Assembly: GCA_036476895.1 (NCBI GenBank)
Contig: JAZGCJ010000341.1
Location: 18,114-82,113 of the forward strand
Length of the DNA stretch: 64,000 bases
Direction: 5' to 3'
Origin: Thermodesulfobacteriota bacterium
GTDB lineage: Bacteria > Desulfobacterota_D > UBA1144 > Nemesobacterales > JAZGCJ01
Positions 1,109-59,420 of this stretch are shown piece after piece. Within the stretch, counting starts at the first letter, position 1. Every line of letters starts with the position of its first letter. A program made the position numbers and the translations under genes. The notes under the pieces are model-generated. The model did no database searches and was not told the DNA's origin. It worked only from the letters and a program-made list of their open reading frames with translations.

Positions 1109-3487
1109 TTATTTCACACCCAGTGAATCAAATAACGAACTTTGTCCTAGGATCCTGTTCCAATGATATCCAGCCACCTGTAAAATTAATTCGATTGGAC
1201 TTTTAATTGTTCGTTCAATGATCTTTGTGTAATTGGGGATTATTTTGGGTAGTTTCTTCTCATCATAATAACAAAGGATATCAGTTGCTGGATAACCCTT
1301 TACTTCTTTTACGAATAACATTTTTATTCTATCTCCCTGTCCGAATTTCCAGCCAAAGTTCTTTGCGGAATAGATACAACCTCTCTTTTGAAGGTTGTTA
1401 CCTTTGTATTCATTAAGTTCTTTTCCCAGGTTCATAGCTATGCAAATCTCATCGTAGGAGTATTTACCATTTTTAATATCTAGAATCAGTTTTTGCACCC
1501 GTTTGACAAACGGTTCAATATTATCATTGAACACAGCTTTGAAGCATTCTGATTGAAGTTCTTTAGTAATCTTTGAAGAGTCACTCCGAACAGCTTCAAA
1601 GCCTTTAATTATAGTGTATGGAGTGTCTAATTCGATTCCATCCTTTTCTATAACCAACATTGCATATTTAGTTCGTGCCCCATCGTCTTTTCGTTTTCCT
1701 AGTCTTGATTTAGCTGGTGTGAATAGAACTTTTGAGGCATAGGATTCAAATTTAATTTCCCATAACGTTTCTACACCTTCATTCTCTTGATAAGCCTTTA
1801 AAGCTTTATTAAGGGCATCTTGAATCATTGAAGCCTCATCTCTACCGCATGCTACCATGATGGAATCGGTGTGGCCATAAATGACACGGTAACCTAGTTT
1901 CTCACTTTCTGTTTTGAGTAATCGTAAACCGTCCATGGCCTTGGCCACCATCTTAGCTACTTGTTTAGAACTATACAAACGAAAGTTAGGATAGGCACAG
2001 GCTCCATAAACTGCGTTTAACAAGAATTTGGCGTTGTCTCGATGAATTTTTTGGAGTTTGTACTCTTCTGTATCCGGCCCCACTGTTTCTAGGATTTCCT
2101 GTAGTTTGTCATCTTCCTTAGCTCGATTATCAATCAAGACTTTAGCAATCCAGTACAAGATCCCTTTTGGCTTTTTTAATCGTTCTTCAGTTGTTAATCC
2201 TTCAAACTCCGGACTGAAGTTATAAGCCATGATTGTTAAAGGAAAGAACCTAGAAAAATCAAACAAGGCTATATTATTGTAAATTCCCGGTGTTGGAGGG
2301 AAATTAATGGCTGCTGGATAAGTTTCATGTTTGCGTTTCACAGCAGTGGGTAAAATTACGTTCAAAGGAGAATTAAACTGTCCCTGTGCCACACGTAAGG
2401 CAATCGCATCTATAACGTGTGTGTTAGAAAGTGATTCAGCTATGTCATATTGGCCACAGGCATCCTTCCGCCCAGTAAAGGCTAAATCAATACCATATCT
2501 CTTGATTAGTTCCACGCAAATGAAAACATCAAAGCAATTATATAATATTAAGTCGTCATGGAGAGAACTGTCTTTATAATAGATTGGATCAAATTCGTCC
2601 ATGACAAGCTCATCCTTATCGAGTATTTCCTCTTCGATTGCTACAAACTTGAGTTTTTTGCCTAAATTTTTCTGTGCAACCTTCGGAAAAAATAGCATTA
2701 TATCGAAAGGCATCATTCCACGTAGATTAATTTTGATGTCTAAGAAGGCCGCTCTAGCCACCAGGTTGTCAATGTCAAAATCCACATTCCAACCGGCAAT
2801 TAAGGTTGGTTGCAATTGTTCTAAATACAATTTAATCGATAAGATCAAGTTAATTTCTTTTTCAAAGCGAATCACAAGCCAGTTCTCAATTTTATCTTTG
2901 TACTTGCGTTTTACAGCTTTTTGATCATAACCAGCTAAGAAGTAGGTAATGTAGGTTTCTAAGCGATTGTCAAAAACGGTTGCTGAGATAATTGTAAAAA
3001 CCGGGTTCTTAGGATTGGGTAATTCTTCTGCATCCATCTCTAGGTCGATTACAGAATACAATGGACGGGATGTATAGTCAATCGGAGCTAATTGATTATG
3101 ATTGATTTGTTTTTTTTCTATATTATTAAAAGTTCCCCCAATTGTAAAGCCTGATCGGATACCCATATCAATTATAAACCTGAGAACGTACCGAATATCA
3201 GCTTCCCATGTTCGTTCAAACAGTCTATCATCACGTAATTGCTTGACTTGCAGCGGATCATGAGTAAAAACACGTTTTAATTTATTGCCCCAAAGATCTA
3301 TAAACTCACCCTCTTCCACACGTTTGATTCGGGGATCTTCAGGAACCGTTTCATGTTCTAAAATGTAAAAGTAGGGTTCGAAGCCTGTGACCTCAAATTG
3401 ATATCGAGTCTTTAGATCTTGGCGGGCCCATACTACGATGCTTCGGTTATAATGGTTATATTGTCCCGTTTCAAATTGGTATGCCAT
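1109..3487 (-). CDS. polB: Family B DNA polymerase (3'-5' exonuclease + polymerase)
   Basis: 792 aa. Exo I VIDLEMD, Exo II YNCFDVFI, Pol motif A DFSRFFPLTIMAYN, motif B KFLLNAVYG, motif C IYGHTDSIMV. Confidence 0.9.
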   Translation of the reverse strand: MAYQFETGQYNHYNRSIVVWARQDLKTRYQFEVTGFEPYFYILEHETVPEDPRIKRVEEGEFIDLWGNKLKRVFTHDPLQVKQLRDDRLFERTWEADIRYVLRFIIDMGIRSGFTIGGTFNNIEKKQINHNQLAPIDYTSRPLYSVIDLEMDAEELPNPKNPVFTIISATVFDNRLETYITYFLAGYDQKAVKRKYKDKIENWLVIRFEKEINLILSIKLYLEQLQPTLIAGWNVDFDIDNLVARAAFLDIKINLRGMMPFDIMLFFPKVAQKNLGKKLKFVAIEEEILDKDELVMDEFDPIYYKDSSLHDDLILYNCFDVFICVELIKRYGIDLAFTGRKDACGQYDIAESLSNTHVIDAIALRVAQGQFNSPLNVILPTAVKRKHETYPAAINFPPTPGIYNNIALFDFSRFFPLTIMAYNFSPEFEGLTTEERLKKPKGILYWIAKVLIDNRAKEDDKLQEILETVGPDTEEYKLQKIHRDNAKFLLNAVYGACAYPNFRLYSSKQVAKMVAKAMDGLRLLKTESEKLGYRVIYGHTDSIMVACGRDEASMIQDALNKALKAYQENEGVETLWEIKFESYASKVLFTPAKSRLGKRKDDGARTKYAMLVIEKDGIELDTPYTIIKGFEAVRSDSSKITKELQSECFKAVFNDNIEPFVKRVQKLILDIKNGKYSYDEICIAMNLGKELNEYKGNNLQKRGCIYSAKNFGWKFGQGDRIKMLFVKEVKGYPATDILCYYDEKKLPKIIPNYTKIIERTIKSPIELILQVAGYHWNRILGQSSLFDSLGVK

Positions 3488-3990: not shown

Positions 3991-4995
3991 TTAATAATGT
4001 CTGCACCCCGGAAAGTGAATGTTATATTTCATTAAGGTGGTATTCTTCATTGGCTTTTTCCCCTCAAGGCTTTTCAAGTGCTTTCGGGTGATGTCCTCAT
4101 CCCAATCAAACCAACCTATCTTACGGAATAGGCTTACAATTTGTTCAAGCCCAAAACTAGCAAAGAGTTCTAAGGCAGCGGCTACCCTGACCATATGCCT
4201 GGGATTCCAGCGTACAATGTGATTCAGGATACATGGTCTAATATATTGACCTAATAACAAACCTACCGGAACAGGAACCACTACTTCTCCTTCATCTTCA
4301 AAATTATCGCTTATTTGTCCTCTATAAATTTTCTTTGGTCGGTCTGGGAAAACCTTTTCAGGCTCAATGTGGTCAAACTCTTCAAAGTCTGGAAGGGTAC
4401 AATTTTCATAATCATAGTATTTAGGTTTATTTAATAGACCTTTGATTTGGCTTTCGTTGAGCTTATGAAAGTCAGGTGGTAAGTATGTGCAATATTTTAC
4501 GTTTTTTGGGGGTCGGCTAGAAGCAGGGATGCGTGTCATTTGTCTGATATCCCCAATCACACTGGTATCTACTTCTTTAGGTAATTTTTTAAGTACTAAG
4601 TTGATTAGACCCAATGCAGCCCGTTCCAGTGTTTTTTTTCGTTCCTGTTCGTCATCGATAACAGTCTTTTTAAATCTCACATACAGATGATACCCTTTTT
4701 TTCCCGATGCCACAGGAATAACACAAAATCCATAATCTATCCATGTTGTGTATAGGTATTTTGCCAGCAAGAAAGAACGTCCAAGATCAAGATCAAAAAA
4801 GACCTTATCAATGGTTTTGTTGTTCCCAAAGACCCCAATAAGTAAATTATGCATTCCTAGATTAGACTCAAAAAATAAATTTAATTCCTGTCGGCTCTTT
4901 ACCACCCTTCGTTGTGGAATCCCAACGTCCCGAGGACTAGTTGGTGTTACAGGAAATAAGCTATGAGTAATGGTGTGAAGTGCCACAATACTCAC
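3991..4995 (-). CDS. Archaeo-eukaryotic primase (AEP / PrimPol-like)
   Basis: AEP motif I VFFDLDL, motif II SGKKGYHLYV, motif III GDIRQMTRIPASSRP. 334 aa. Confidence 0.75.
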   Translation of the reverse strand: MSIVALHTITHSLFPVTPTSPRDVGIPQRRVVKSRQELNLFFESNLGMHNLLIGVFGNNKTIDKVFFDLDLGRSFLLAKYLYTTWIDYGFCVIPVASGKKGYHLYVRFKKTVIDDEQERKKTLERAALGLINLVLKKLPKEVDTSVIGDIRQMTRIPASSRPPKNVKYCTYLPPDFHKLNESQIKGLLNKPKYYDYENCTLPDFEEFDHIEPEKVFPDRPKKIYRGQISDNFEDEGEVVVPVPVGLLLGQYIRPCILNHIVRWNPRHMVRVAAALELFASFGLEQIVSLFRKIGWFDWDEDITRKHLKSLEGKKPMKNTTLMKYNIHFPGCRHY

Positions 4996-5915
4996 TCCAC
5001 GTTGGAGGGTTCTTCTGGTTCATCCTCTTCTTGTTCTGCAGTGTTTTCCATTGGAGCCATGAGGAAAGTAAATTTGGATTTTTCCGACTCAAAAATAACT
5101 CTAACAGCCCCTTCGTGATTATAGTGTAATTTTACATTATTTTGTAAATCTAGTTTTGTTAGATGTTCTAAATTTTCCAGGTCATAAGTAGATGCAATTG
5201 TTTTTTCTAAGCCATTCAAAGAAATGGATTCAATCTCATTAACCTCGTTTCCTTTTAGTCTTACCTTCACATCCGCTGCAACCGAACTTTCTGAACCACT
5301 AAGCAAACTAAAATTAACTTTTTTATCATCCAAAGTTTCTATGTGAATGTATCTTGTAGATTCATCTCCTACGTGGAGATCTTCTAATATTGTCTTGTAT
5401 CCTCCTCTTGTAAAGATAAGTTCACAATTCATTTCTTTTGTTAGGGCTACATTGGCCAATTTTTGTGTATGTTTGTAATCTATAGAATCTGAAGTTTCAC
5501 TATGCAATCTTAATCTGTAAGTTCGACTTCTTGAGGAATTAATGGATTGTATAGAGAGAGTTGCTCTTGAATCACCAGATGAGGCTTTTATTGTAACAAT
5601 GTCATCCGTTTGAGCTTTGGCTAAAATATCTTTGAGATCTTTTAAGTCTAACCAAAGAACAATATCTTCATCTACCTTTAAATCTGAAAACGCATCAGCT
5701 TCAAAGCTAAATTGGAAGAACATGGCTCCTGAACTTTCCATTGTGACACAGACACATCCCTGTTCTGAAAAGGCAAAGGGTTGTGTTCCACCTACAAAAG
5801 AGAGCAATCTTTCGACATAATTTTTTAATTCTTTTACTGTTCCGTTTTTAAATGTTGCTAACATAGTTTTTTCCTCATTGATTTTTATATTTTGTACTTC
5901 TGGAGTATTTCCCAT
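4992..5915 (-). CDS. PCNA-like sliding clamp
   Basis: 307 aa, two-domain size. C-terminus KFTFLMAPMENTAEQEEDEPEE resembles the PCNA C-terminus (..YYLAPKIEDEE). Operonic with primase and ATPase. Confidence 0.5.
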   Translation of the reverse strand: MGNTPEVQNIKINEEKTMLATFKNGTVKELKNYVERLLSFVGGTQPFAFSEQGCVCVTMESSGAMFFQFSFEADAFSDLKVDEDIVLWLDLKDLKDILAKAQTDDIVTIKASSGDSRATLSIQSINSSRSRTYRLRLHSETSDSIDYKHTQKLANVALTKEMNCELIFTRGGYKTILEDLHVGDESTRYIHIETLDDKKVNFSLLSGSESSVAADVKVRLKGNEVNEIESISLNGLEKTIASTYDLENLEHLTKLDLQNNVKLHYNHEGAVRVIFESEKSKFTFLMAPMENTAEQEEDEPEEPSNVE

Positions 5916-9548: not shown

Positions 9549-9600
9549 GCCAAAAAAAAAGGAAGCCAATCAAACCAAAAGGTCCGATTAACTTCCGTTT

Positions 9601-10032: not shown

Positions 10033-10170
10033 GATAATCTCCTCGAGATTTCAATAAGTACATTATTGTTTCGAGACTTTATAAGTCTGACCAATTTGAT
10101 ATCAATGCATTGACGGAAGATACAAAAGTATTTAAAGTCTGGAATGTAATATATTACTTGTGAACAAATA

Positions 10171-19816: not shown

Positions 19817-20278
19817 TCAAACTTCAATTGGCTTGCTGTACGATACAAGCCGGAAATCCTTATTAAAAACGATTTTATTGATATGATTATGGCTGTCGTC
19901 ACTACCCTCAAGCTCGAGTAAAAGTTGCCACTCTAATGATGTGTGTGGGCGGTTTCTACTTTTGTCTGTGATTCTTAACATTTCCTTTCGGGCTTGTATT
20001 CCTCGGGCTCGAGTTCGGGAAATAACTTGTGTTGTTATGATTATCCCTCTATCCCGATTTGTATCTTTCAATTCTGTTCTTTCAAAATCTTGAGTCTGTT
20101 CTCGAATAAAAATAAAATTATCATCGGTTGTTAGAATTTTGGGAACCGCCATATCTTGATCTCCCGGTTTCCCAATAGTGGGTCTAGGTCTAAAATTGGT
20201 GAAAGTCCAATTATCTTTTAACAGGCTAATAAACATATCTATAGGTCGGTCACGAATAGTTAAAGCTGGATTGACCAT
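19817..20278 (-). CDS. putative head-tail connector component
   Basis: 153 aa. Positional. Confidence 0.3.
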   Translation of the reverse strand: MVNPALTIRDRPIDMFISLLKDNWTFTNFRPRPTIGKPGDQDMAVPKILTTDDNFIFIREQTQDFERTELKDTNRDRGIIITTQVISRTRARGIQARKEMLRITDKSRNRPHTSLEWQLLLELEGSDDSHNHINKIVFNKDFRLVSYSKPIEV

Positions 20279-20879
20279 AATAAAAAAGGAATAACTTATG
20301 TGGGTGAACTACCCCTTCCTTCGGGTAGGGGCTTCAATCTTTTTAAAGGTCTTTTTAACCAAACCAGATACCTCAACCGAAGTCAAGTACTGGAACGATA
20401 TCTTTTTCCCTGCGAGTCCGCCGAACTTCCGAAGAAGAAACTTTCATTTTACCTTTGGCTGTGTGTCGCAGAAAACCTCTCTTTCGAGAGATTCCCGGTT
20501 CATACGGGGTTCGTGCAATAGATTCTGATGAATCACAATAACACATGCAATAAAATTCCTGATTATGAAGAACGTATCTTCAATTTTTTTTTCATGGTGA
20601 GGAGCACATCCTCAAACATCATTGATTTTCATGTTGTTAAAAAAGTTTCCTCAGAAAAAGAAATGGATGAGATCACTCTCAAAAAGTCTTATCTCTTCTC
20701 CTGTGAACCAATATAATGGAGGTAGGTTGGTAAGCAACTGGTGAACCAACAGACAACTATGGTGAATACAAACACCGAATCTGAGAACAGACAATTGAAC
20801 AGCGGCTTACCTTTGCCTGTTAATTAAGTATTGTGCATATGGATTTAAATAGTGTTTGATTAAACTTAGTATCTTCTGT

Positions 20880-21578
20880 TTAACGTACTATGAGTTCTTT
20901 ATATCGGTTAATAATCTGTGCCACTCTTACACGGAAAGCCTCGGCTTTAACCTCTTGTTGTATGGCTTGGGGGTTGTCAGGAAACAGGTGAATATAATCT
21001 TCGCCTACCAAAAAATTAACGGCAGTTAATTTCTTTGCAGCCTCGTGGATATCCGATGGTACAGTTAATCTGCCATGTCGGTAAGTCACACGAATTGTAC
21101 CCCGTCCTCGTTGGGCTTCTCCTGTGTACAATTCAATTCTTCCTGCACGTAAATCTACCCAATAATCTCCATCCCTGGGTCCAACTCCTGGTGTACCAGT
21201 ATCAACCAAATCAATATAAGAGGCTCCATTCCAGACCTCTAGTTTGTCACCCGCAGCTTTACTTAAATCAAAAATATTTCTTTTCTCTAAATAGACAATG
21301 ACAGCCGAACTATGCCGAGGAATGCCATGTCGAGTGTAATGTCGTCTGTTATGTCGCAGATTACTATGTGTTTCTTCTGTGACAATAGTAGTACGCCAAG
21401 CCTGTCCGGTTTCCTCATCTATCCATCTTTCGGCTTCTAATATCCATCTTTCAACATCTTTACGACTAGGATGACTCTTAGCTGAGAATACAATCCGTTT
21501 ATCTTTTTCCACTAGTCGTAGAAGGGATGATACATCTCGGGGTAAACAATAGATTGGTGAACCTGTTTCAATTGCCAT
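20880..21578 (-). CDS. hypothetical virion protein
   Basis: 232 aa. Separated from the next gene downstream by a 600-nt ORF-free structured region. Confidence 0.35.
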   Translation of the reverse strand: MAIETGSPIYCLPRDVSSLLRLVEKDKRIVFSAKSHPSRKDVERWILEAERWIDEETGQAWRTTIVTEETHSNLRHNRRHYTRHGIPRHSSAVIVYLEKRNIFDLSKAAGDKLEVWNGASYIDLVDTGTPGVGPRDGDYWVDLRAGRIELYTGEAQRGRGTIRVTYRHGRLTVPSDIHEAAKKLTAVNFLVGEDYIHLFPDNPQAIQQEVKAEAFRVRVAQIINRYKELIVR

Positions 21579-21580
21579 AA

Positions 21581-22270
21581 TTAATCATCAAATGGGGAAT
21601 CGCTAGTAAATCCTGTATCAGACTCTTCGCTTTCTTCCGAGGTTGTGTTATCACTGACTTCTGTTAGTGATTCGTCAGAAGGTTCGGTATTCGGTTTCTC
21701 TTCAACAGGTATTTCGTCTTTGTATGGTTTATCTTCAAGGCGTTCCTCTGTTTCTTGTTTTATAATTTTCTTTTTCACAGGTTTAGGACTAGCAGGTTCC
21801 AAAGTTTTTTTTTCATCACTTGGTTTTTGGACAGAGACCGTTTCAGTTTTTGTATCATTTGCGACAGTTTGCTTTTGTATCTTCTGTTCGTTTTTTTCTT
21901 TTTCCTCGTCAGATTCTACGAAGTTTACAGATGATTCAACATCTGGTGAAACTGGAATAATTTCTTTTTCTTTTTTTTGTGGTTTATAAGTAGAACCTAA
22001 ATGTAAGTTGAAACCTGTTGGGTCATGTTTGGGGGGTTCTTTGCTCTTGCGTTCTACATAATCTTTAACAATATAGAAGGCATCACGAACTACATTTTCA
22101 ACTTGGAACCCCTCTCCATCTGAGGTGTCCTCATAAGAAAGAACAAAACCTCTTAGGGGATAGAATATCAAATTAAATGCTGTGATAACCGATTGGGCAT
22201 CATTGAATTGCCCTAATATTTTTAGGCCCTCAAGCCTCGCTTTGCGACTCTTGTTGTTCTCTTGCTGCAT
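21581..22270 (-). CDS. highly charged low-complexity protein (K/E/D/S/T-rich)
   Basis: 229 aa. C-terminal two thirds is disordered-looking acidic/lysine-rich sequence. Possibly a scaffold or internal protein. Confidence 0.35.
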   Translation of the reverse strand: MQQENNKSRKARLEGLKILGQFNDAQSVITAFNLIFYPLRGFVLSYEDTSDGEGFQVENVVRDAFYIVKDYVERKSKEPPKHDPTGFNLHLGSTYKPQKKEKEIIPVSPDVESSVNFVESDEEKEKNEQKIQKQTVANDTKTETVSVQKPSDEKKTLEPASPKPVKKKIIKQETEERLEDKPYKDEIPVEEKPNTEPSDESLTEVSDNTTSEESEESDTGFTSDSPFDD

Positions 22271-22826
22271 TATAGATTTCTGTCCTTATTTGTGTTAATA
22301 GTTCTACTAACTCATTAATGCTATCTACTTCGTTATGATGACGGGAAAAATCAGTTACCATCACATTAACGACATCGTTTAACTCTCTAATAGTTTGTAG
22401 CATGTCTTTATAATTAGTATTGTCTGCAATAAATCCTTGTATAAGAGGTCTCCCATTCTCATTAACAGGTCTAACATGAATGGTTACATCAATTCCTTTT
22501 CCGTCTTTTGTAAGCATCCCGATTTCATGGTATTCAACTTCATGTGTAGATCCTTCAAATCGTCTGAGAAGATTATCAATTACTCTCTCTTGGGAATCCA
22601 CATCAAAAAGTGTCTCAACCATTCTTCTAGGCCTATGTTCTATTGGAATTGCACTAATGAATTTGTTCCAGGATTCTACATCCCAACCTAACATAGCCTC
22701 AAACTGAGAATTTACTTTTTTAAGTAATCCAGTGGTGCCATCCATATAATAAATGCCGTAGGTAGTAATAGTTTCCAGAGAAGTTACTGTTCCAGTTAAT
22801 TTAGCCTCTAAGGATTGGCGTTCCAT
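22230..22826 (-). CDS. PAS-domain-like protein
   Basis: 198 aa. PAS-like core ...YYMDGTTGLLKKVNSQFEAMLGW...GMLTKDGKGIDVTIHVRPVNENGRPLIQGFIADNTNYKDM. An in-frame stop at 22983-22985 prevents upstream extension. Confidence 0.45.
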   Translation of the reverse strand: MERQSLEAKLTGTVTSLETITTYGIYYMDGTTGLLKKVNSQFEAMLGWDVESWNKFISAIPIEHRPRRMVETLFDVDSQERVIDNLLRRFEGSTHEVEYHEIGMLTKDGKGIDVTIHVRPVNENGRPLIQGFIADNTNYKDMLQTIRELNDVVNVMVTDFSRHHNEVDSINELVELLTQIRTEIYNAAREQQESQSEA

Positions 22827-23183
22827 AATCTCTTCTTTGTGGGAATTGATTAAAGAAGCGACATCGTTTTGAATATTAGTATATCTGTTGCCTAGCTCAA
22901 CATTCCTTTTATTGGCATAGTGCCATACTAAATAAATAAAAAAGCCATTCCCAATTATTATAGGAATTAAAAAGAATGTAACTAATTGTGATTCTGGGAT
23001 AATGCCAGAAGTCGATAGAGAAACAGAGATTAAGATAATAACAATAACGATTTGTTTTCCTGACTCTTTTAAAAATAAACTGAATTGTTGTTTGAATTTA
23101 ATTTGAGCATCTTCAACGAATTCATCTACCTTACTTTCTACATTGTCAGGTACTAAATCGGGGCTCAGTCATACCACCAAGCC

Positions 23184-24374: not shown

Positions 24375-24813
24375 TGAATTTAGAACCTTTTTTTATACTA
24401 AGAAATGTTAATGTAAATAATTCGGTGGGGATATATAATGTAGGGAAGTCTCAACTCCTTACCTCTCAAATCCCAAGAGAGTGAATCCTCTACGCCAATG
24501 TTAGCCAAGGTTTTGATACCAGCAGCACGGTCCTTACCCTTAGAACTGTTTAACCACTGATCGCAGAGTCCCGGACTTGAGGAGCATCCTGGAGTGCCTA
24601 TATATTCTTGGTAACGAAGTCCCATCAAGTATTTGTATAGAACAAATACATGGTGACTGAGGCTAATCAATCGGGCTCGGTTTTCTAAAAACATAGTTTT
24701 TTATTCCAAGCCCCTGAGTTTTTAGCTCAAGGGTTATTGACTAAAGATTTTGGTTTGCCGAATTATTTCGCTCACTACATAGATTTTTTTCAAGAATTTA
24801 AGTAATTTTTGTT

Positions 24814-27484: not shown

Positions 27485-29062
27485 TCACTTAATATTGTTC
27501 TTTACAATGCGGTCAATTTCGGCCACTGTAAGCGAATCAATGGCCCGTCTAAAAAAAGGTCGTGGTAATGTTCCGTTTTTTGCAATGGAAAAACGGATTG
27601 CGTTGGCAATCTTTAGAGCTTCTGCATCTCTTGTTTTTCTTTTCCTACCAGTTCCTGTAGATACTTGAACTCGAATCTTTCGCTTAACCCATGCCAGGAT
27701 TGGGTCTAATGGAGGCATGTGAGGTCGTGTGTTCCCACAAAAGGTTGGCTTCCCATTTCGTCTTACATAAAAGTTTCCATTTGAAACAGATAAACAGTAA
27801 ACCTTTCCTGAGTATGGGTAAAGTGAAACAGTTCTTGCATCCACCCACAAACTATTTGATTTCTTAATATATACAGTATAAGAAGGAAAATTACGTTTAT
27901 ACATTTTATTGTTAATACTGAATTCTCCTCTCAAGTCCCTAACTCCTATATAACTCCAAAAACCACACTTTAAGGCCAGTTCTTGAACATCACTGGCTAG
28001 ACCAATACTACTTGTATGGTACCTAGGATAAGAGCCAGAACTTGTTACAGCAGTACTTCCATCACCCACTAATAGTGCTTCAAGTAAACCCTCGGAAAAA
28101 GTTTTATTGTATTGGAGAAATTCCCGAGGAATTCGCTTAAAAGGAGCAAGTTTGTTTAATCCCTTTTTAGCTAACCAACTAACTAATTGAACATTTGAAA
28201 TTCTGAATTTTTTCCCATCGTAAATATATTTAAAAGGTAGTTTATCTAACACATTTTGGATATACAAGCAACCGTCTTGTTTTGTTTGTGATATATTTAA
28301 TCTATAATTTTTGTTAGGATATCGCTTGTCATTTTCAATATTACCTTCACTAATGATCAGTCCCAAAAAGTTTGCAAAGTTCAACGGATTAATTTTGAGT
28401 GTTGGTTTTTCTAAATCTATATACTCTTTCTGTTTCCCTAAGAAATGTTGTTCCATATATTTGTTAATTTCCACATCGATTAGAGAATTGCCTTTCCAGC
28501 TTCCAACAGTGGGTATGTATCCTCTGTATCCTTTTAAGATTGATTTTGCAGGTCTGAAATGTAGATTCTTTTTGTTCCTGTTATACATTAACATACGATG
28601 ATCTGGTGTGACCAACAGATCCAAATACCTATTTTTAAAATGTAATAAATCTCCTGACCAATCTCTCTCTGTTATTTTTTTAGGGTAGCTATATTCTATT
28701 TTACCACTCCTCACATTTAAAGTGCAGACAATATCATTAATTGTACATTTTGTAATTGATTTCCATCCATGTGTTGTTAGAACCTCTGTATCAGCAGAAT
28801 AACATCCAAACTCGATGAACGGGGCATGAAAAGCATCGAAGATAACTTTTTTCTTTAATCTTTTTCGTTCAACTCTTCCAGAACGAGCTAGTGTTCCTCT
28901 ATCAAAAGCACCTTCGCCTATTGCAGGTGAGAAATTAGCGGACCGTAAGTTTTCATCTGCTTCGCTTAGGACAAAATCAGCCATGTCATCTAAGGCTCGG
29001 TCAAGTTGATCTAAGAAATCATCGTAGATTTTTTCAACTGTATCCCCCAAAAGTTTGACCAT
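27485..29062 (-). CDS. HK97 gp10-family virion protein interrupted by an intein with LAGLIDADG homing endonuclease
   Basis: N-extein ends FHAPFIEFG. Intein starts CYSADTEVLTTHGW (block A), has block B LLVTPDHRML and LAGLIDADG-like FLGLIISEGNI and LLEALLVGDGST, and ends VYCLSVSNGNFYVRRNGKPTFCGN. The +1 residue is T, followed by RPHMPPLDPILAW (gp10-family ...YVEFGT..MPA.P.L pattern). Confidence 0.65.
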   Translation of the reverse strand: MVKLLGDTVEKIYDDFLDQLDRALDDMADFVLSEADENLRSANFSPAIGEGAFDRGTLARSGRVERKRLKKKVIFDAFHAPFIEFGCYSADTEVLTTHGWKSITKCTINDIVCTLNVRSGKIEYSYPKKITERDWSGDLLHFKNRYLDLLVTPDHRMLMYNRNKKNLHFRPAKSILKGYRGYIPTVGSWKGNSLIDVEINKYMEQHFLGKQKEYIDLEKPTLKINPLNFANFLGLIISEGNIENDKRYPNKNYRLNISQTKQDGCLYIQNVLDKLPFKYIYDGKKFRISNVQLVSWLAKKGLNKLAPFKRIPREFLQYNKTFSEGLLEALLVGDGSTAVTSSGSYPRYHTSSIGLASDVQELALKCGFWSYIGVRDLRGEFSINNKMYKRNFPSYTVYIKKSNSLWVDARTVSLYPYSGKVYCLSVSNGNFYVRRNGKPTFCGNTRPHMPPLDPILAWVKRKIRVQVSTGTGRKRKTRDAEALKIANAIRFSIAKNGTLPRPFFRRAIDSLTVAEIDRIVKNNIK

Positions 29063-35430: not shown

Positions 35431-35487
35431 CGTAAGACCTGAATCATTGTCTGTGAATTCCCCTTAATAGTATTATTATTTTGACCA

Positions 35488-35551
35488 TTTCATTAACGGA
35501 AGATACAAAAGTATTTAAATTCTGGAATGAATGAATTACTTGTGAACCACA
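35488..35551 (+). promoter_or_regulatory. conserved promoter/leader cassette (copy)
   Basis: ttaACGGAAGATACAAAAGTATTTAAAttctggaatgaatgaattaCTTGTGAACcacaATG. Nearly identical to 10114-10173. Confidence 0.55.
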
Positions 35552-36013
35552 ATGGTAGCATGCAGACGATGTGGGCGGAGTTTAACACATCCCCGTTCCG
35601 TGAAAAATAAAGTAGGACCCCGATGCCGGGGTAAAGAAATGAGTGAAAGGCAATTTGTGCTTTCCCAAGCCGAGCCTGAGGATCTAACTGTTGAGAGACA
35701 AACCTTAGTTATCTTGCATCAATTAATAGGTAAGGGATCTGGTATTAGCCCTAATACTAGGGGCAGACATACAAAAGATCTCACAAAAGCAGGGTACTCA
35801 GAGGTTAAAGATTGGTCTTACCATAACTTCCCAGGATTAATCGATTATCTTGAAACAGGTAGAGGAAATGGTATTGAATACAAGTATTTGATATCGGATC
35901 AAATCTCGGGCAAGGACAGCGAAGGGAATCTCATAAGTCAGATGGTCATTACTTTGTTTGAAAGAATTTTACGGGAGAAGGTAGTTAGTTCCACCCCACA
36001 AATATTAAACTAG
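35552..36013 (+). CDS. zinc-ribbon protein
   Basis: 153 aa, N-terminal CRRCGRS...GPRCRG. Preceded by the conserved promoter cassette. Confidence 0.45.
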   Translation: MVACRRCGRSLTHPRSVKNKVGPRCRGKEMSERQFVLSQAEPEDLTVERQTLVILHQLIGKGSGISPNTRGRHTKDLTKAGYSEVKDWSYHNFPGLIDYLETGRGNGIEYKYLISDQISGKDSEGNLISQMVITLFERILREKVVSSTPQILN

Positions 36014-36056
36014 GAAAAATCGGGTAGTAGCTCAGCAATGAGTTGCTATCCTTTTT

Positions 36057-39963: not shown

Positions 39964-39999
39964 CGGAGTTAAACCATTCGTGGTTTGACTCCTTTTTTT
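39964..39999 (+). terminator. intrinsic terminator (12-bp stem with UUCG tetraloop, T8)
   Basis: GGAGTTAAACCA-TTCG-TGGTTTGACTCC followed by TTTTTTTT. Confidence 0.65.
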
Positions 40000-50008: not shown

Positions 50009-50226
50009 CCTATTACCACCTGCATTTCTAGCTTTGTCAGACTTTTAAAAAAACGAGTTTTTTCATTATCTGGTATTAATTCTTCATTCCGTGCCATCAA
50101 TTCTAGTGTCTTCTCAAACGCCGTTACCTTTGCCTTTTCCCTCTTTCTATACCGATCTATTGACTCCTTCCGCTTCTCTGTATATGTCCCCTTCCCTTTA
50201 TTTCCATATAACCCAGTTACTTCCAC
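49990..50226 (-). CDS. hypothetical small basic protein
   Basis: 78 aa, Lys-rich. Confidence 0.3.
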   Translation of the reverse strand: MEVTGLYGNKGKGTYTEKRKESIDRYRKREKAKVTAFEKTLELMARNEELIPDNEKTRFFKSLTKLEMQVVIGWLKNY

Positions 50227-52586: not shown

Positions 52587-53003
52587 TTAATAGTCTTCTG
52601 GCAACATTATGGTATAATGAGGGGCATTTTCCTCAATCTCATTCATACAAACCCAAACTTCAATTTTTACGCCATTGGGGGATTCAACTTTGATATTGTA
52701 GAAATGATCAGGCTCGGTTGTCAAATTTTTTGTCTTAAGTTTAATGGCATGTAAGCTATTATTCAAAAGATCAATTAAATTTGGTACATTGACTGAATCT
52801 TCTTCCGAATTCCAATAATTATGAGTTCTCAAGAGATTCATAGTTGCATGGGTTATCAAAGAGTTAAATAGATTCACGTTTTTGAATTGGGTTCTGATAT
52901 CAAATAAGATACCATCTTCTGTTGCTTGCTGACTACTGTATTCGCTTATGACGAATAAATCGTCAGATTCCTTTTGTGTCATGTTTGGTTCACTAGCCTC
53001 CAA
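52587..53003 (-). CDS. hypothetical protein
   Basis: 138 aa. Confidence 0.35.
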   Translation of the reverse strand: MEASEPNMTQKESDDLFVISEYSSQQATEDGILFDIRTQFKNVNLFNSLITHATMNLLRTHNYWNSEEDSVNVPNLIDLLNNSLHAIKLKTKNLTTEPDHFYNIKVESPNGVKIEVWVCMNEIEENAPHYTIMLPEDY

Positions 53004-53071: not shown

Positions 53072-53353
53072 TTACTCGGTCTCGGATGCTTCACTCGCCC
53101 GTAAGGGCCTAGTAACGCTCCCCGAAGGGAGTCTCTCCTCGCCAATGTTATCATGGCTTGTTCGGCCTAACACACTGTTCGCTACCCCGGCAAACTGTTT
53201 AATGTTAGACGACATTGCTGCAGACTGGAGAAGCATCCACAGGTGTCCTAACCATAATAACGGAGTCCATACAATCACTTGCATATCATTCCAAGGCTGG
53301 TCAAGCAGTTGTTTGGGGAGTTCTTGACCGTTGATATCATTCCTTACCAACAA
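53072..53353 (-). CDS. hypothetical small protein
   Basis: 93 aa. Driven by the conserved promoter cassette at 53354-53410. Confidence 0.35.
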   Translation of the reverse strand: MLVRNDINGQELPKQLLDQPWNDMQVIVWTPLLWLGHLWMLLQSAAMSSNIKQFAGVANSVLGRTSHDNIGEERLPSGSVTRPLRASEASETE

Positions 53354-53961: not shown

Positions 53962-53989
53962 AAAAAAAAGGTAACTCCGAAGAGTTACC
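53962..53989 (-). terminator. intrinsic terminator for minus-strand transcripts (8-bp stem, CGAA/UUCG loop, flanked by A8/T8)
   Basis: aaaaaaaa-GGTAACTC-CGAA-GAGTTACC-aaaaaaaa on the + strand. On the minus strand the hairpin is followed by U8. Confidence 0.55.
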
Positions 53990-54260: not shown

Positions 54261-54354
54261 TAATTCGGTTTTCCATATCATAGTTGGTTCACCTGTATAA
54301 GGCTTTCCCCTAAAAAGGGAAAGGTGATTACTTAAGGCAATCAATCTGAGATAC

Positions 54355-58907: not shown

Positions 58908-59006
58908 TTGTTAAGAAAATGCTTAATAAGTGTTTTGTTTGTTAATGGTCCATACCAAAAGGTTAAACTTTTAAAGTCTCGAGTGGCAGAAGAGACATGT
59001 GAACCA

Positions 59007-59420
59007 ACTATGACAAACACAGTGAATATATTAAAACAATTTTGTGTGTATTGCAGAGGACAAACTCAAAACAAGAGTTTTCATGAAAGTTGTCTAATTC
59101 CTATTATGGAATTGAATATTAAGGAGCTTTTTAAGAATAATTTTAAAAGATCTTTTCCTGCACAAAGAGAATCGTTTGAAAATTCATTATATGCCGATAT
59201 ATTTGAATTAGATAAGAGATATATATATTGTGATTATTGTGGAAAGAGAAGAACTCATAAAGGGATAATTTCTTACAAATGTAGTCATAATTACTGTAAA
59301 ATGAAGATTAAACAGAGTTGTAGAGTTATTGCTCTATTCTTTGAAGATAAATGTATTTTTTGTAATAAAAATAATCAGCTACAAGAAAAGAACCTTAACA
59401 AATACGATCCACTAAAATGA
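59007..59420 (+). CDS. zinc-finger-rich protein (start trimmed to ATG preceded by GTGAAC)
   Basis: MTNTVNILKQFCVYCRG...CDYCGK...CSHNYCK...CIFCNK. Upstream: aaacTTTTAAAGtctcgag...catGTGAACcaactATG. The listed ORF 58908-59420 begins at an upstream TTG. Confidence 0.4.
   Translation, partial: TMTNTVNILKQFCVYCRGQTQNKSFHESCLIPIMELNIKELFKNNFKRSFPAQRESFENSLYADIFELDKRYIYCDYCGKRRTHKGIISYKCSHNYCKMKIKQSCRVIALFFEDKCIFCNKNNQLQEKNLNKYDPLK

What the first reader, a model, noticed from the sequence alone, without database searches (positions are those of the whole stretch)
20279..20879. 600-nt ORF-free, GC-rich, hairpin-dense segment interrupting the virion structural operon
Between the virion genes 20880..21578 and 19817..20278 lies 600 nt with no plausible ORF on the operon strand. 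It contains several strong hairpins: CCCCTTCC-UUCG-GGTAGGGG, CTTC-CGAA-GAAG (UUCG on the other strand), CTCTC-GAAA-GAGAG, plus GGGGTTCG-like motifs. The surrounding operon is packed almost without gaps, so this reads as a structured RNA element, an intron/intein-free remnant, or a regulatory or packaging-related site. It is not homologous to the 10.6/54.1-kb ncRNA family. The + strand ORFs called here (20298..20716) look spurious.
Basis: seen in the sequence. Interest (0 to 1): 0.5.

Follow-up and report, generated by a model that had tools for sequence, protein, structure and literature searches.

The report
Orphan non-coding spacer in viral operon
A 601-base stretch without a gene really does split the head and tail genes of this virus, which looks like a tailed virus of archaea, but it is not GC-rich, matches no known RNA or protein family, and is most likely a lineage-specific insertion that has decayed.

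Summary
The gap 20279-20879 is real and looks non-coding. Codon usage, 3-base periodicity and six-frame Pfam/PHROGs scans give no coding signal. One full HMMER search and two AlphaFold runs found nothing. It is not GC-rich (0.379 against 0.377 for the window); only 20300-20499 reaches 0.46. The named hairpins exist, but folding energy is unremarkable (z -0.5 to -1.8). That test is weak here, because the two genuine HEARO RNAs in the same genome score only -1.8 and -2.2. Rfam, tRNA, repeat and DNA searches found no relative.

The contig appears to be a tailed archaeal virus: capsid and adaptor relatives are all archaeal viruses, and it encodes a PCNA clamp, PolB and a Hef/XPF-like nuclease. In every alignable relative examined, the adaptor gene abuts the next gene by 0-7 nt, overlaps it, or lies about 30 nt away. 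The spacer is therefore lineage-specific.

Its right half has reversed strand composition. It carries, on the opposite strand, two copies of this virus's own gene-start motif (GTGAACCAA...ATG), followed by only 5- and 22-codon frames.

Best reading: a decayed opposite-strand small-gene cassette, possibly now acting as transcription punctuation through an oligo-T cluster. A new structured or antisense RNA is not excluded. Interest is low.

The parts
20279..20879 (.). Lineage-specific 601-nt spacer between the adaptor-like gene and the first neck/tail gene
   Evidence: absent from relatives
20880..21578 (-). Flanking gene: head-tail adaptor-like protein, 232 aa (phrog_17057, phrog_442)
19817..20278 (-). 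Flanking gene, 153 aa, no family match; its N-terminal extension scores as coding, which fixes the left edge of the spacer
20309..20331 (.). G+C-rich hairpin CCCCTTCC-TTCG-GGTAGGGG with one mismatch; alternative register CTACCC/GGGTAG, 6 bp. It starts 31 nt upstream of the 153-aa gene's ATG and has no adjacent T-run on the minus strand
   Evidence: the identical 20-mer elsewhere is a chance match or an ordinary terminator stem
20339..20349 (-). A/T box CCTTTAAAAAG (TATA-like), 61-71 nt upstream of the 153-aa gene's ATG; a possible archaeal-type promoter element (inferred only)
20372..20387 (-). Hairpin CUUGAC-UUCG-GUUGAG, 6 bp with two G-U pairs, so it forms only on the minus strand
20426..20437 (-). 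4-bp CUUC-UUCG-GAAG hairpin; trivial on its own
20471..20496 (-). 11-bp hairpin with a GAAA loop (3 G-U pairs), -12.8 kcal/mol; about 5 bp on the plus strand
20373..20546 (-). Longest operon-strand ORF (57 aa, very basic); codon score 0.056; AlphaFold predicts coil (pTM 0.11)
20528..20716 (+). Opposite-strand ORF of 62 aa; its TAA overlaps the next ATG (TAATG). No homologue in 1.84 billion proteins; pLDDT 50
20639..20685 (-). Three oligo-T runs on the operon strand within 47 nt (T5 at 20681-20685, T5 at 20655-20659, T6 at 20639-20644); candidate archaeal-type terminator cluster
20652..20703 (-). 13-bp purine/pyrimidine stem (3 G-U pairs, minus strand only) enclosing a GUGA-loop hairpin, just upstream of the T6 run
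20729..20811 (-). Long imperfect inverted repeat (17-nt arms, 76% complementary) forming the first domain of the 20636-20822 minus-strand fold (z -1.8)
20703..20718 (+). Copy 1 of the virus's gene-start motif, GTGAACCAATATAATG, followed by a 5-codon frame
20741..20827 (+). Copy 2 of the gene-start motif, GTGAACCAACAGACAACTATG (spacer 12 nt rather than 4-7), followed by a 22-codon frame MVNTNTESENRQLNSGLPLPVN
20282..20287 (-). T6 run immediately before the ATG of the 153-aa gene

Best explanation
The 601 nt are a lineage-specific insertion at the head-tail junction of a tailed archaeal virus. The most likely origin is a small gene cassette that entered in the opposite (plus-strand) orientation and has since decayed.

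What remains is non-coding DNA. The right half (about 20530-20830) keeps the strand composition of plus-strand genes. It also keeps two copies of the virus's own start signal (GTGAACCAA...ATG) in front of 5- and 22-codon stubs. The left half (20300-20530) is slightly G+C-richer leader DNA with a few ordinary hairpins.

Any present-day effect is probably on transcription of the operon. Three oligo-T runs on the operon strand (20685-20639) would tend to stop an archaeal RNA polymerase after the head genes. Tail-gene expression would then need read-through or re-initiation from A/T boxes near 20340-20350.

Shown: the insertion status, the lack of coding signal, the motif copies and the skew reversal. 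Inferred: the cassette origin and the termination or re-initiation role.
For: 1. Insertion. Adaptor homologues in HVTV-1, HCTV-2 and vir335, and in environmental L004 and L016, are followed within 0-7 nt by the next gene or overlap it; L007 has a 30-nt gap. HVTV-1 also has exactly two genes between adaptor and tube, as here, so no gene appears to be missing.

2. Non-coding now.

3. Plus-strand ancestry of the right half.
- AT skew is +0.16 to +0.21 at 20600-20849. Only 0.3% of windows in minus-strand genes reach 0.2, against 20% in plus-strand genes.
- GTGAAC[CA]A followed 4-7 nt later by ATG or TTG precedes at least 12 real genes of this virus.
- The 11-mer GTGAACCAAYA (<=1 mismatch) occurs 9 times against 2.8 expected, with 0 of 100 shuffles reaching 9. 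Two copies lie in the gap, 38 nt apart on the plus strand.
- The first copy's ATG overlaps the stop of the +62-aa ORF as TAATG.
- One plus frame has a single stop in 150 codons (P about 0.04 in block-wise dinucleotide shuffles).

4. The genome collects selfish or foreign inserts: an intein with a LAGLIDADG domain in 27485-29062, and two solo HEARO RNAs, one of them also inside this operon.

5. Transcription punctuation. Sense-strand T>=5 runs are depleted two-fold in genes (1.86 against 3.82 per kb), yet three lie within 47 nt in the gap.
Against: - No homologue of any frame exists, so the 'decayed gene' origin cannot be shown directly.
- Codon score and 3-base periodicity of the +62-aa ORF are not gene-like, and the P of 0.04 for the open frame is weak.
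- The motif was noticed because it is repeated in the gap, so the analysis is post hoc. Some GTGAAC...ATG pairs are expected by chance (my rough estimate is 2-3 in the window).
- The left half has minus-like skew and minus-strand-specific G-U hairpins, which the cassette model does not explain.
- No member of the virus's about 100-nt promoter family lies in the gap.
- Oligo-T and A/T boxes are easy to find in 38% G+C DNA.
- The archaeal host is inferred from gene content and relatives, not shown. The source record is labelled Thermodesulfobacteriota.
Confidence: 0.4

Rival explanations
1. A functional transcription-unit boundary. An oligo-T terminator cluster ends the head-gene transcript. An archaeal-type promoter (A/T box at 20339-20349) restarts transcription for the tail genes. 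The 20309-20331 hairpin sits near the predicted 5' end of the new transcript and stabilises it.
For: - Three T5-T6 runs lie within 47 nt on the operon strand, against 1.86 per kb inside genes.
- The A/T-rich 10-mers TTTAAAAAGA and AAGACCTTTA recur (<=1 mismatch) in 7 and 4 other intergenic gaps.
- The box lies 61-71 nt before the ATG. With the roughly 29-nt box-to-start spacing seen in this virus's promoter family, transcription would start inside the hairpin.
- The spacer sits exactly at the head/tail module border.
Against: - Relatives manage without any spacer here.
- 600 nt is far more than a terminator plus a promoter need.
- No copy of the virus's recognisable promoter family is present.
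- The first T-run is 195 nt after the adaptor stop.
- All elements are short and A/T-rich, so they are expected by chance.
Confidence: 0.2
2. A new operon-strand small RNA. The proposed transcript would run from about 20822 to 20636, about 185 nt. It would fold into two domains. It would present two UUGGUUCAC segments complementary to the GUGAACCAA leaders of at least eight early genes, acting as an antisense repressor of early genes late in infection. Alternatively, the hairpin cluster at 20300-20510 is a structured RNA of unknown role.
For: - Several stems contain G-U pairs and so form only on the minus strand: 20471-20496, 20372-20387 and 20652-20703.
- GNRA and UUCG loops are present.
- z is -1.8 for 20636-20822, the same range as the genuine HEARO RNAs here (-1.8, -2.2).
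- A/T boxes at 20865-20841 precede it and T-runs follow it.
- The core of the second anti-leader segment is unpaired in the predicted fold.
- Other gaps of this genome do hold RNAs.
Against: - No Rfam match at E<=10.
- z-scores are within the range of shuffles and of coding flanks.
- Motif accessibility is average: 0.45 and 0.54 against a mean of 0.44.
- No homologue turned up in any exact-match scan or BLAST search, so there is no covariation evidence.
- The complementarity is equally explained by relic plus-strand gene starts.
Confidence: 0.12
3. One or more real small proteins are encoded here and were missed by gene callers: the +62-aa ORF (20528-20716), the 22-codon frame (20759-20827) or the -57-aa ORF (20373-20546).
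For: - Codon scores of -0.03 and +0.06 fall inside the range of this virus's accepted small genes (-0.12 to 0.26).
- The virus's start motif precedes the 22-codon frame and sits at the end of the 62-aa ORF in a coupled TAATG arrangement.
- A 24-codon frame with the same motif exists at 54281.
Against: - 0 hits for the 62-aa ORF among 1.84 billion proteins.
- AlphaFold gave coil or pLDDT 50.
- Period-3 power is low.
- No Pfam or PHROGs hit.
- The 62-aa ORF has no start motif of its own.
- The motif-to-ATG spacing for the 22-codon frame is 12 nt, against 4-7 nt at real genes.
Confidence: 0.1
4. A remnant of a mobile element: a free-standing homing endonuclease gene, or an IS200/IS605-type non-autonomous element like the two HEARO inserts.
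For: - At 601 nt, the size fits a 150-200-aa endonuclease gene.
- The genome already carries an intein with a LAGLIDADG domain, and an HNH gene further along the contig.
- It carries two solo HEARO RNAs, one inserted in the same operon.
- A subterminal imperfect hairpin lies at 20309-20331.
Against: - No endonuclease or transposase motif in any frame at E<=5.
- HEARO was not detected in the gap even at E<=10.
- No terminal inverted or direct repeats, and no second copy in the window or the next 9.6 kb of the contig.
- No matching hairpin at the other end.
Confidence: 0.1

Closest known systems
Morons and other lineage-specific gene cassettes inserted between structural genes of tailed viruses, and their decayed remnants
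   Same: It is an extra segment between two genes that are adjacent in relatives. It has the opposite orientation to the operon, carries its own start signals, and is dispensable for the conserved gene order.
   Different: No intact gene, recognisable promoter or terminator flanks it, and no homologue is known. The cassette origin is inferred from strand composition and motif relics only.
HEARO / IscB-IsrB omega-RNA inserts (Rfam RF02033) present in the same genome at 24481-24741 and 53127-53328
   Same: It is a non-coding interval of a few hundred nt in an intergenic gap of the same virus, on the operon strand, with modest folding z-scores.
   Different: There is no match to the HEARO model at E<=10 and no sequence similarity to either copy. 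It also lacks the about 100-nt promoter-family copy that precedes the 53-kb HEARO copy.
Phage P1/P7 c4 antisense RNA (from my own knowledge): a small RNA cut from a longer transcript, whose short segments pair with the ribosome-binding region of a target mRNA
   Same: Under the sRNA reading, two short segments (UUGGUUCAC) in a structured operon-strand RNA are complementary to translation-start leaders.
   Different: There would be many potential targets rather than one. No expression, processing or conservation data exist, and accessibility of the segments is only average. This is a functional analogy, not a family assignment.
Archaeal transcription punctuation: oligo-T terminators and BRE/TATA promoters (established knowledge of archaeal transcription)
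   Same: There is a cluster of T5-T6 runs on the sense strand, followed by an A/T box at a suitable distance from the next gene.
   Different: The elements are short and statistically weak, the spacer is ten times longer than needed, and relatives lack it.

Membership tests
Any Rfam 15 RNA family (including HEARO, group I/II introns, ribozymes, riboswitches, snoRNA-like) | Covariance-model score at or above the family's gathering threshold | tested here: not met
   Gathering scan of the window found only two HEARO hits, both elsewhere. An E<=10 scan of 20150-21000 gave a best score of 21 bits against a threshold of 80, all weak A/T-rich snoRNA, miRNA or sRNA chance hits. An E<=0.1 scan of the whole window added nothing.
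tRNA / tmRNA | Cloverleaf recognised by ARAGORN | tested here: not met
   0 genes in the whole window. The 'GGGGTTCG' motif is not part of a T-arm with the conserved loop.
Structured non-coding RNA in general | Folding energy significantly below dinucleotide shuffles | tested here: inconclusive
   z ranges from -0.5 to -1.8. The genuine HEARO RNAs of this genome give only -1.8 and -2.2, so the test cannot discriminate.
Structured non-coding RNA in general | Conservation with compensatory base changes in relatives | not testable with these tools
   No homologous sequence was found in BLAST against phages and plasmids, or in six exact-match 20-23-mer patterns scanned against the viral, genome or metagenome contig collections. 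Flanking proteins have no relative above 35% identity.
Rho-independent (intrinsic) terminator | Strong G+C stem immediately followed by a T-run | tested here: not met
   The consensus scan finds none in the gap. This genome's clear examples (11-16 bp stem plus T7-T9) are all elsewhere, and the gap's hairpins lack adjacent T-runs.
Protein-coding gene or recent pseudogene of a known family | Profile or sequence similarity of any reading frame to a known family or protein | tested here: not met
   Pfam and PHROGs on all six frames with stops masked found nothing at E<=5. tblastn against phages found none. HMMER of the +62-aa ORF against 1.84 billion proteins gave 0 hits. A profile of the relatives' post-adaptor gene found no hit in the gap. 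Searches are uninformative because the joined queries failed to recover even self hits.
Protein-coding gene | Codon usage and 3-base periodicity like the genome's genes | tested here: not met
   Codon scores are -0.35 to +0.06 against 0.22 +/- 0.13. Period-3 power is 1.3-1.6 against a coding median of 3.8. Two small ORFs fall within the low tail of accepted small genes.
Transposable element (IS, MITE, IS200/IS605-derived element) | Terminal inverted repeats or subterminal hairpins at both ends, target duplication, multiple copies | tested here: not met
   No terminal repeats or duplications. No second copy in the window or in the adjoining 9.6 kb of the contig. There is a hairpin at one end only.
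Archaeal C/D-box small RNA | Boxes C, D', C' and D with about 12-nt guide spacers | tested here: not met
   There is only one C-like box (CTGATGA at 20525) with a CTGA 27 nt later and no terminal D box.
Inserted cassette ('moron'-like) relative to conserved gene order | Flanking genes adjacent in related genomes | tested here: met
   The adaptor homologue abuts or overlaps the next gene in HVTV-1, HCTV-2, vir335, L004 and L016.
Inserted cassette ('moron'-like) relative to conserved gene order | Own gene with promoter and terminator | tested here: not met
   Only start-motif relics followed by 5- and 22-codon frames. No promoter-family copy and no terminator.

The most novel reading that the evidence does not exclude
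The spacer encodes a previously unknown small RNA of an archaeal virus, made from the late-operon strand at roughly 20822-20636. Its two UUGGUUCAC segments would pair with the GUGAACCAA leaders of the virus's early genes and shut them off late in infection. That would be a virus-wide antisense switch, analogous in principle to P1 c4 RNA.
Probability: 0.08. Interest if true: 0.6.

Novelty: new member of a known kind. Interest (0 to 1): 0.2.

Why it matters
As it stands the finding matters little. It is one more orphan, lineage-specific non-coding insert in a mosaic viral genome, with no relatives to study.

Its value is mainly contextual. It led to the recognition that the contig is probably a tailed archaeal virus mislabelled as bacterial. 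This virus has its own start and promoter motifs, and its structural operon has been invaded at least twice (this spacer and a solo HEARO omega-RNA).

If the spacer did turn out to produce an antisense RNA against the shared early-gene leader, it would be a rare example of RNA-based temporal control in an archaeal virus.

Tried and rejected
- **Rfam scans.** I ran the gathering scan and the permissive scans; they found nothing in the gap.
- **tRNA and tmRNA.** ARAGORN found none.
- **Alternative genetic code.** Stops in the gap are mixed TAA/TAG/TGA, and the genome's genes end in TAA or TGA normally. The three TGA-only stops in minus frame 1 are the shadow of the codon-aligned plus frame.
- **Homopolymer frameshift.** Shifting frame at the A9/T9 run would join at most about 58 codons.
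- **Tandem repeats or iterons.** TRF found none. The 38-nt spacing of two 9-mer pairs is not a real period.
- **Repeat of the gap elsewhere.** None in the window or the next 9.6 kb.
- **Exact 20-23-mer scans of public collections.** The three viral hits to AACCTCTCTTTCGAGAGATTC lie inside an unrelated ORF. The three genome hits to the 20312-20331 hairpin share nothing beyond the stem. The others gave 0 hits.
- **A gene lost from the gap.** Profiles of the relatives' post-adaptor genes hit nothing in the window. The gp10-like gene of this virus sits at 27485-29062, and the gene count between adaptor and tube equals that of HVTV-1.
- **Sigma-70 promoter scan.** It found no sites in the gap and is probably not applicable to an archaeal host.
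- **Bacteroidetes-type reading of the repeated TTACCTTTGSCTGT.** It has 3 copies in the window, and 9 of 100 shuffles do as well.
- **Link between HEARO guide segments and the gap.** No match of 11 nt or more.
- **C/D-box sRNA.** Not supported.
- **Joined six-frame and flank queries to the 5.8-billion protein search.** These returned nothing, but they also missed proteins known to be in the collection. Both negatives are discarded.

Full report
**What is there.** The interval 20279-20879 (601 nt) separates two minus-strand genes. Upstream is a 232-aa head-tail adaptor-like protein at 20880-21578 (phrog_17057 at E 1e-32; phrog_442 'head-tail adaptor'). Downstream is a 153-aa protein at 19817-20278. 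Next come a 167-aa gene, a tail tube gene (PF18906), chaperone-like genes and tape-measure-sized genes. The window is part of NCBI contig JAZHCF016853949.1 (88 kb), labelled as a Thermodesulfobacteriota MAG. No gene is called in the interval by the collection's gene calls, and the NCBI locus tags on either side are consecutive. NCBI starts the downstream gene 42 codons later. Those 42 codons score as coding (0.221 per codon), so I keep 20279 as the left edge.

**Checking the description.**
- 'ORF-free' holds. The longest operon-strand ORF is 57 aa. Every candidate frame scores between -0.35 and +0.06 per codon on a log-odds table trained on this genome's genes. True 55-codon chunks score 0.22 +/- 0.13 and spurious ORFs -0.21 +/- 0.16. 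Three-base periodicity is 1.3-1.6, below 91-96% of coding windows.
- 'GC-rich' does not hold. The gap is 0.379 G+C and the window 0.377. Only 20300-20499 reaches 0.46, as do neighbouring coding stretches.
- The quoted hairpins are real, but the interval does not fold better than shuffled sequence. z is -1.6 and -0.7 for the two strands of the whole gap, -1.2 and -0.5 for the hairpin-rich left part, and -1.8 for 20636-20822. Coding flanks reach -2.8 in 120-nt windows.
- As a control I folded the two bona fide HEARO RNAs of this genome. They give only -2.2 and -1.8. The energy test therefore cannot separate RNA genes from background here. Its failure is not evidence against an RNA.
- The operon is not gap-free. 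It also has apparent gaps of 357, 439 and 848 nt.

**Searches for a known identity.**
- Rfam found nothing in the interval at gathering thresholds or at E<=10. ARAGORN found no tRNA.
- There are no tandem repeats, terminal repeats or second copies, either in the window or in a further 9.6 kb of the contig.
- All six frames with stops masked hit nothing in Pfam or PHROGs at E<=5.
- tblastn and blastn against phage and plasmid collections were empty.
- A full HMMER search with the +62-aa ORF against 1.84 billion proteins gave no hit.
- AlphaFold gave a coil for the -57-aa ORF and pLDDT 50 for the +62-aa ORF.
- Exact-match scans with six 20-23-mers from the interval found only chance matches.
- Two searches in which I joined several frames or proteins with X-runs returned nothing, not even proteins that are demonstrably in the collection. 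I discard those negatives.

**What kind of virus this is.**
- The capsid protein and the adaptor hit only tailed archaeal viruses in the annotated phage collection. These are Haloarcula siphoviruses (HVTV-1, HCTV-1, -5, -16, HCTV-2, HHTV-2) and viruses assigned to Methanofastidiosa and Methanomassiliicoccales, at 25-35% identity.
- The contig encodes a PCNA-type sliding clamp, a family B polymerase and a Hef/XPF-like nuclease. Their nearest families are archaeal, although all score below the curated cut-offs.
- It also carries an intein with a LAGLIDADG domain inside a gp10-like gene.
- I therefore treat the host as probably archaeal (inference). Sigma-70 promoters and hairpin-plus-U terminators would then not be the relevant signals, while A/T boxes and oligo-T runs would be.

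In every relative where the adaptor can be aligned, the next gene follows at once:
- HVTV-1: gp125 to gp126, 0 nt, then gp127 and the tube-sized gene gp128.
- HCTV-2: 2 nt.
- vir335: 7 nt.
- Environmental viruses L004 and L016: overlapping.
- L007: a 30-nt gap.

HVTV-1 has two genes between adaptor and tube, as this virus does, so nothing seems to be missing. The relatives are remote, though. Only the adaptor, and in one case the tube, aligns at all. No closer relative exists in any collection I could query. The 601 nt are thus a lineage-specific insertion, and covariation cannot be tested.

**Internal anatomy.** The two halves of the spacer differ.
- The left half (20300-20600) has the strand composition of minus-strand genes (AT skew about -0.11).
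- The right half (20600-20849) has +0.16 to +0.21. That value is reached by 0.3% of windows in minus-strand genes and by 20% in plus-strand genes.
- The repeated 9-mer GTGAACCAA in the right half (20703 and 20741, plus strand) turns out to be this virus's own gene-start signal. GTGAAC[CA]A followed 4-7 nt later by ATG or TTG precedes at least 12 accepted genes. With one mismatch allowed, the 11-mer occurs 9 times against 2.8 expected.
- In five of those genes the motif is the downstream end of a conserved element of about 100 nt, with a sixth copy directly upstream of the 53-kb HEARO RNA. In that element a TTTAAA box lies 29 nt before GTGAAC, which is the geometry of an archaeal TATA box and start site.
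- In the gap the two motif copies are followed by frames of only 5 and 22 codons. The first ATG overlaps the stop of the +62-aa ORF as TAATG. No copy of the promoter family is present.
- One plus frame has a single stop in 150 codons (P about 0.04).
- On the operon strand, three T5-T6 runs lie within 47 nt (20685-20639). Sense-strand T-runs are otherwise two-fold depleted in genes.
- Several stems contain G-U pairs and so form only on the minus strand.

**Interpretation.** The best-supported account is that a small cassette of opposite-strand genes, using the virus's own start signals, was inserted or duplicated into the adaptor/neck junction and has decayed. This explains the lineage specificity, the reversed skew, the start-motif relics with stub frames and the weakly open plus frame. 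It also explains the absence of any coding or family signal. The oligo-T cluster may now attenuate transcription between head and tail genes, with re-initiation or read-through needed for the tail genes. That part is inference. I give this account 0.4. It does not explain the left half's minus-strand-specific hairpins.

The rivals are a functional terminator-promoter boundary (0.2), a new operon-strand small RNA (0.12), missed small proteins (0.1) and a mobile-element remnant (0.1). In one version of the small-RNA rival, the two UUGGUUCAC segments would pair with the early-gene leaders. None can be excluded without transcript data or closer relatives.

**Verdict.** Nothing places the spacer in a known RNA or protein family. 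It is an orphan insert of a familiar kind, and I score it as low interest. The side observations about the virus itself are more interesting than the spacer.

Noticed in passing
window 24481-24741 (-) and 53127-53328 (-): Two full-length HEARO (IscB/IsrB omega-RNA, RF02033) matches at 109 and 108 bits lie in intergenic gaps of a virus, with no IscB/IsrB-sized ORF beside them. The downstream genes are unrelated proteins of 158 aa and 138 aa. The two copies are too diverged for blastn to align. Their presumed guide segments match nothing else in the window.
   Followed up: partly
whole window, plus L023 (next 9.6 kb of the contig): The contig is labelled Thermodesulfobacteriota but looks like a tailed archaeal virus. 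Its capsid and adaptor match only Haloarcula, Methanofastidiosa and Methanomassiliicoccales viruses. It encodes a PCNA-type clamp (4992-5915), PolB (1109-3487) and a Hef/XPF-like nuclease (373-1107). Further along are two N6/N4 methyltransferases with an HNH gene between them.
   Followed up: partly
window 10072-10175 (+), 35455-35555 (+), 55071-54971 (-), 55969-55867 (-), 58915-59014 (+), 53415-53350 (-): A family of promoter-like elements of about 100 nt has six copies. Each reads ATCAATGCATTG ... GGAAGATACAAAAGTATTTAAAGTCTGGAATG ... ATATATTACTT, then GTGAAC and the start codon. The TTTAAA box lies 29 nt before GTGAAC (archaeal TATA geometry). The sixth copy sits directly upstream of the 53-kb HEARO RNA. 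The near-palindrome AATGCATTG also recurs upstream of several other genes.
   Followed up: partly
window, at least 12 gene starts (e.g. 10171, 35552, 39177, 59010, 59739 on +; 55871, 54975, 54648, 52982, 51930, 51572, 45824 on -): The virus-specific start signal GTGAAC[CA]A lies 4-7 nt before ATG or TTG. It suggests that the ORF 52587-53003 really starts at ATG 52982. It also precedes a 24-codon frame at 54281.
   Followed up: partly
window 27485-29062 (-): This 525-aa ORF combines a marginal HK97 gp10-like N-terminus with an intein (Intein_splicing and LAGLIDADG_3). It sits upstream of the protease and capsid genes, rather than after the adaptor.
   Followed up: no
window 22827-23183: This apparent 357-nt gap is probably coding. 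The minus frame in phase with gene 22230-22826 is open for 113 codons and has two membrane-helix-like segments. Its codon score is 0.14 and period-3 power 3.05. It has no ATG, GTG or TTG, so an unusual start, a frameshift or a sequence error is likely.
   Followed up: partly
window 54323-54303, 52556-52536, 51976-51956 (-): Three copies of the hairpin CTTTCCCTTTTTAGGGGAAAG occur here. Two of them lie 10-15 nt upstream of a GTGAACCAAC start motif.
   Followed up: no
window 9561-9596 (-), 10809-10838 (+), 36022-36051 (+), 39965-39992 (+), 53970-53989 (-): Strong hairpins (8-16 bp) are each followed by T7-T9, mostly at the ends of opposite-strand genes. They are terminator-like signals, and none occurs in the spacer.
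   Followed up: no
window 20449-20462 and 20807-20820 (+): The 14-mer TTACCTTTGSCTGT occurs twice in the spacer, 358 nt apart, and once more at 50124. It is not significant window-wide (9 of 100 shuffles give three or more copies) and remains unexplained.
   Followed up: yes
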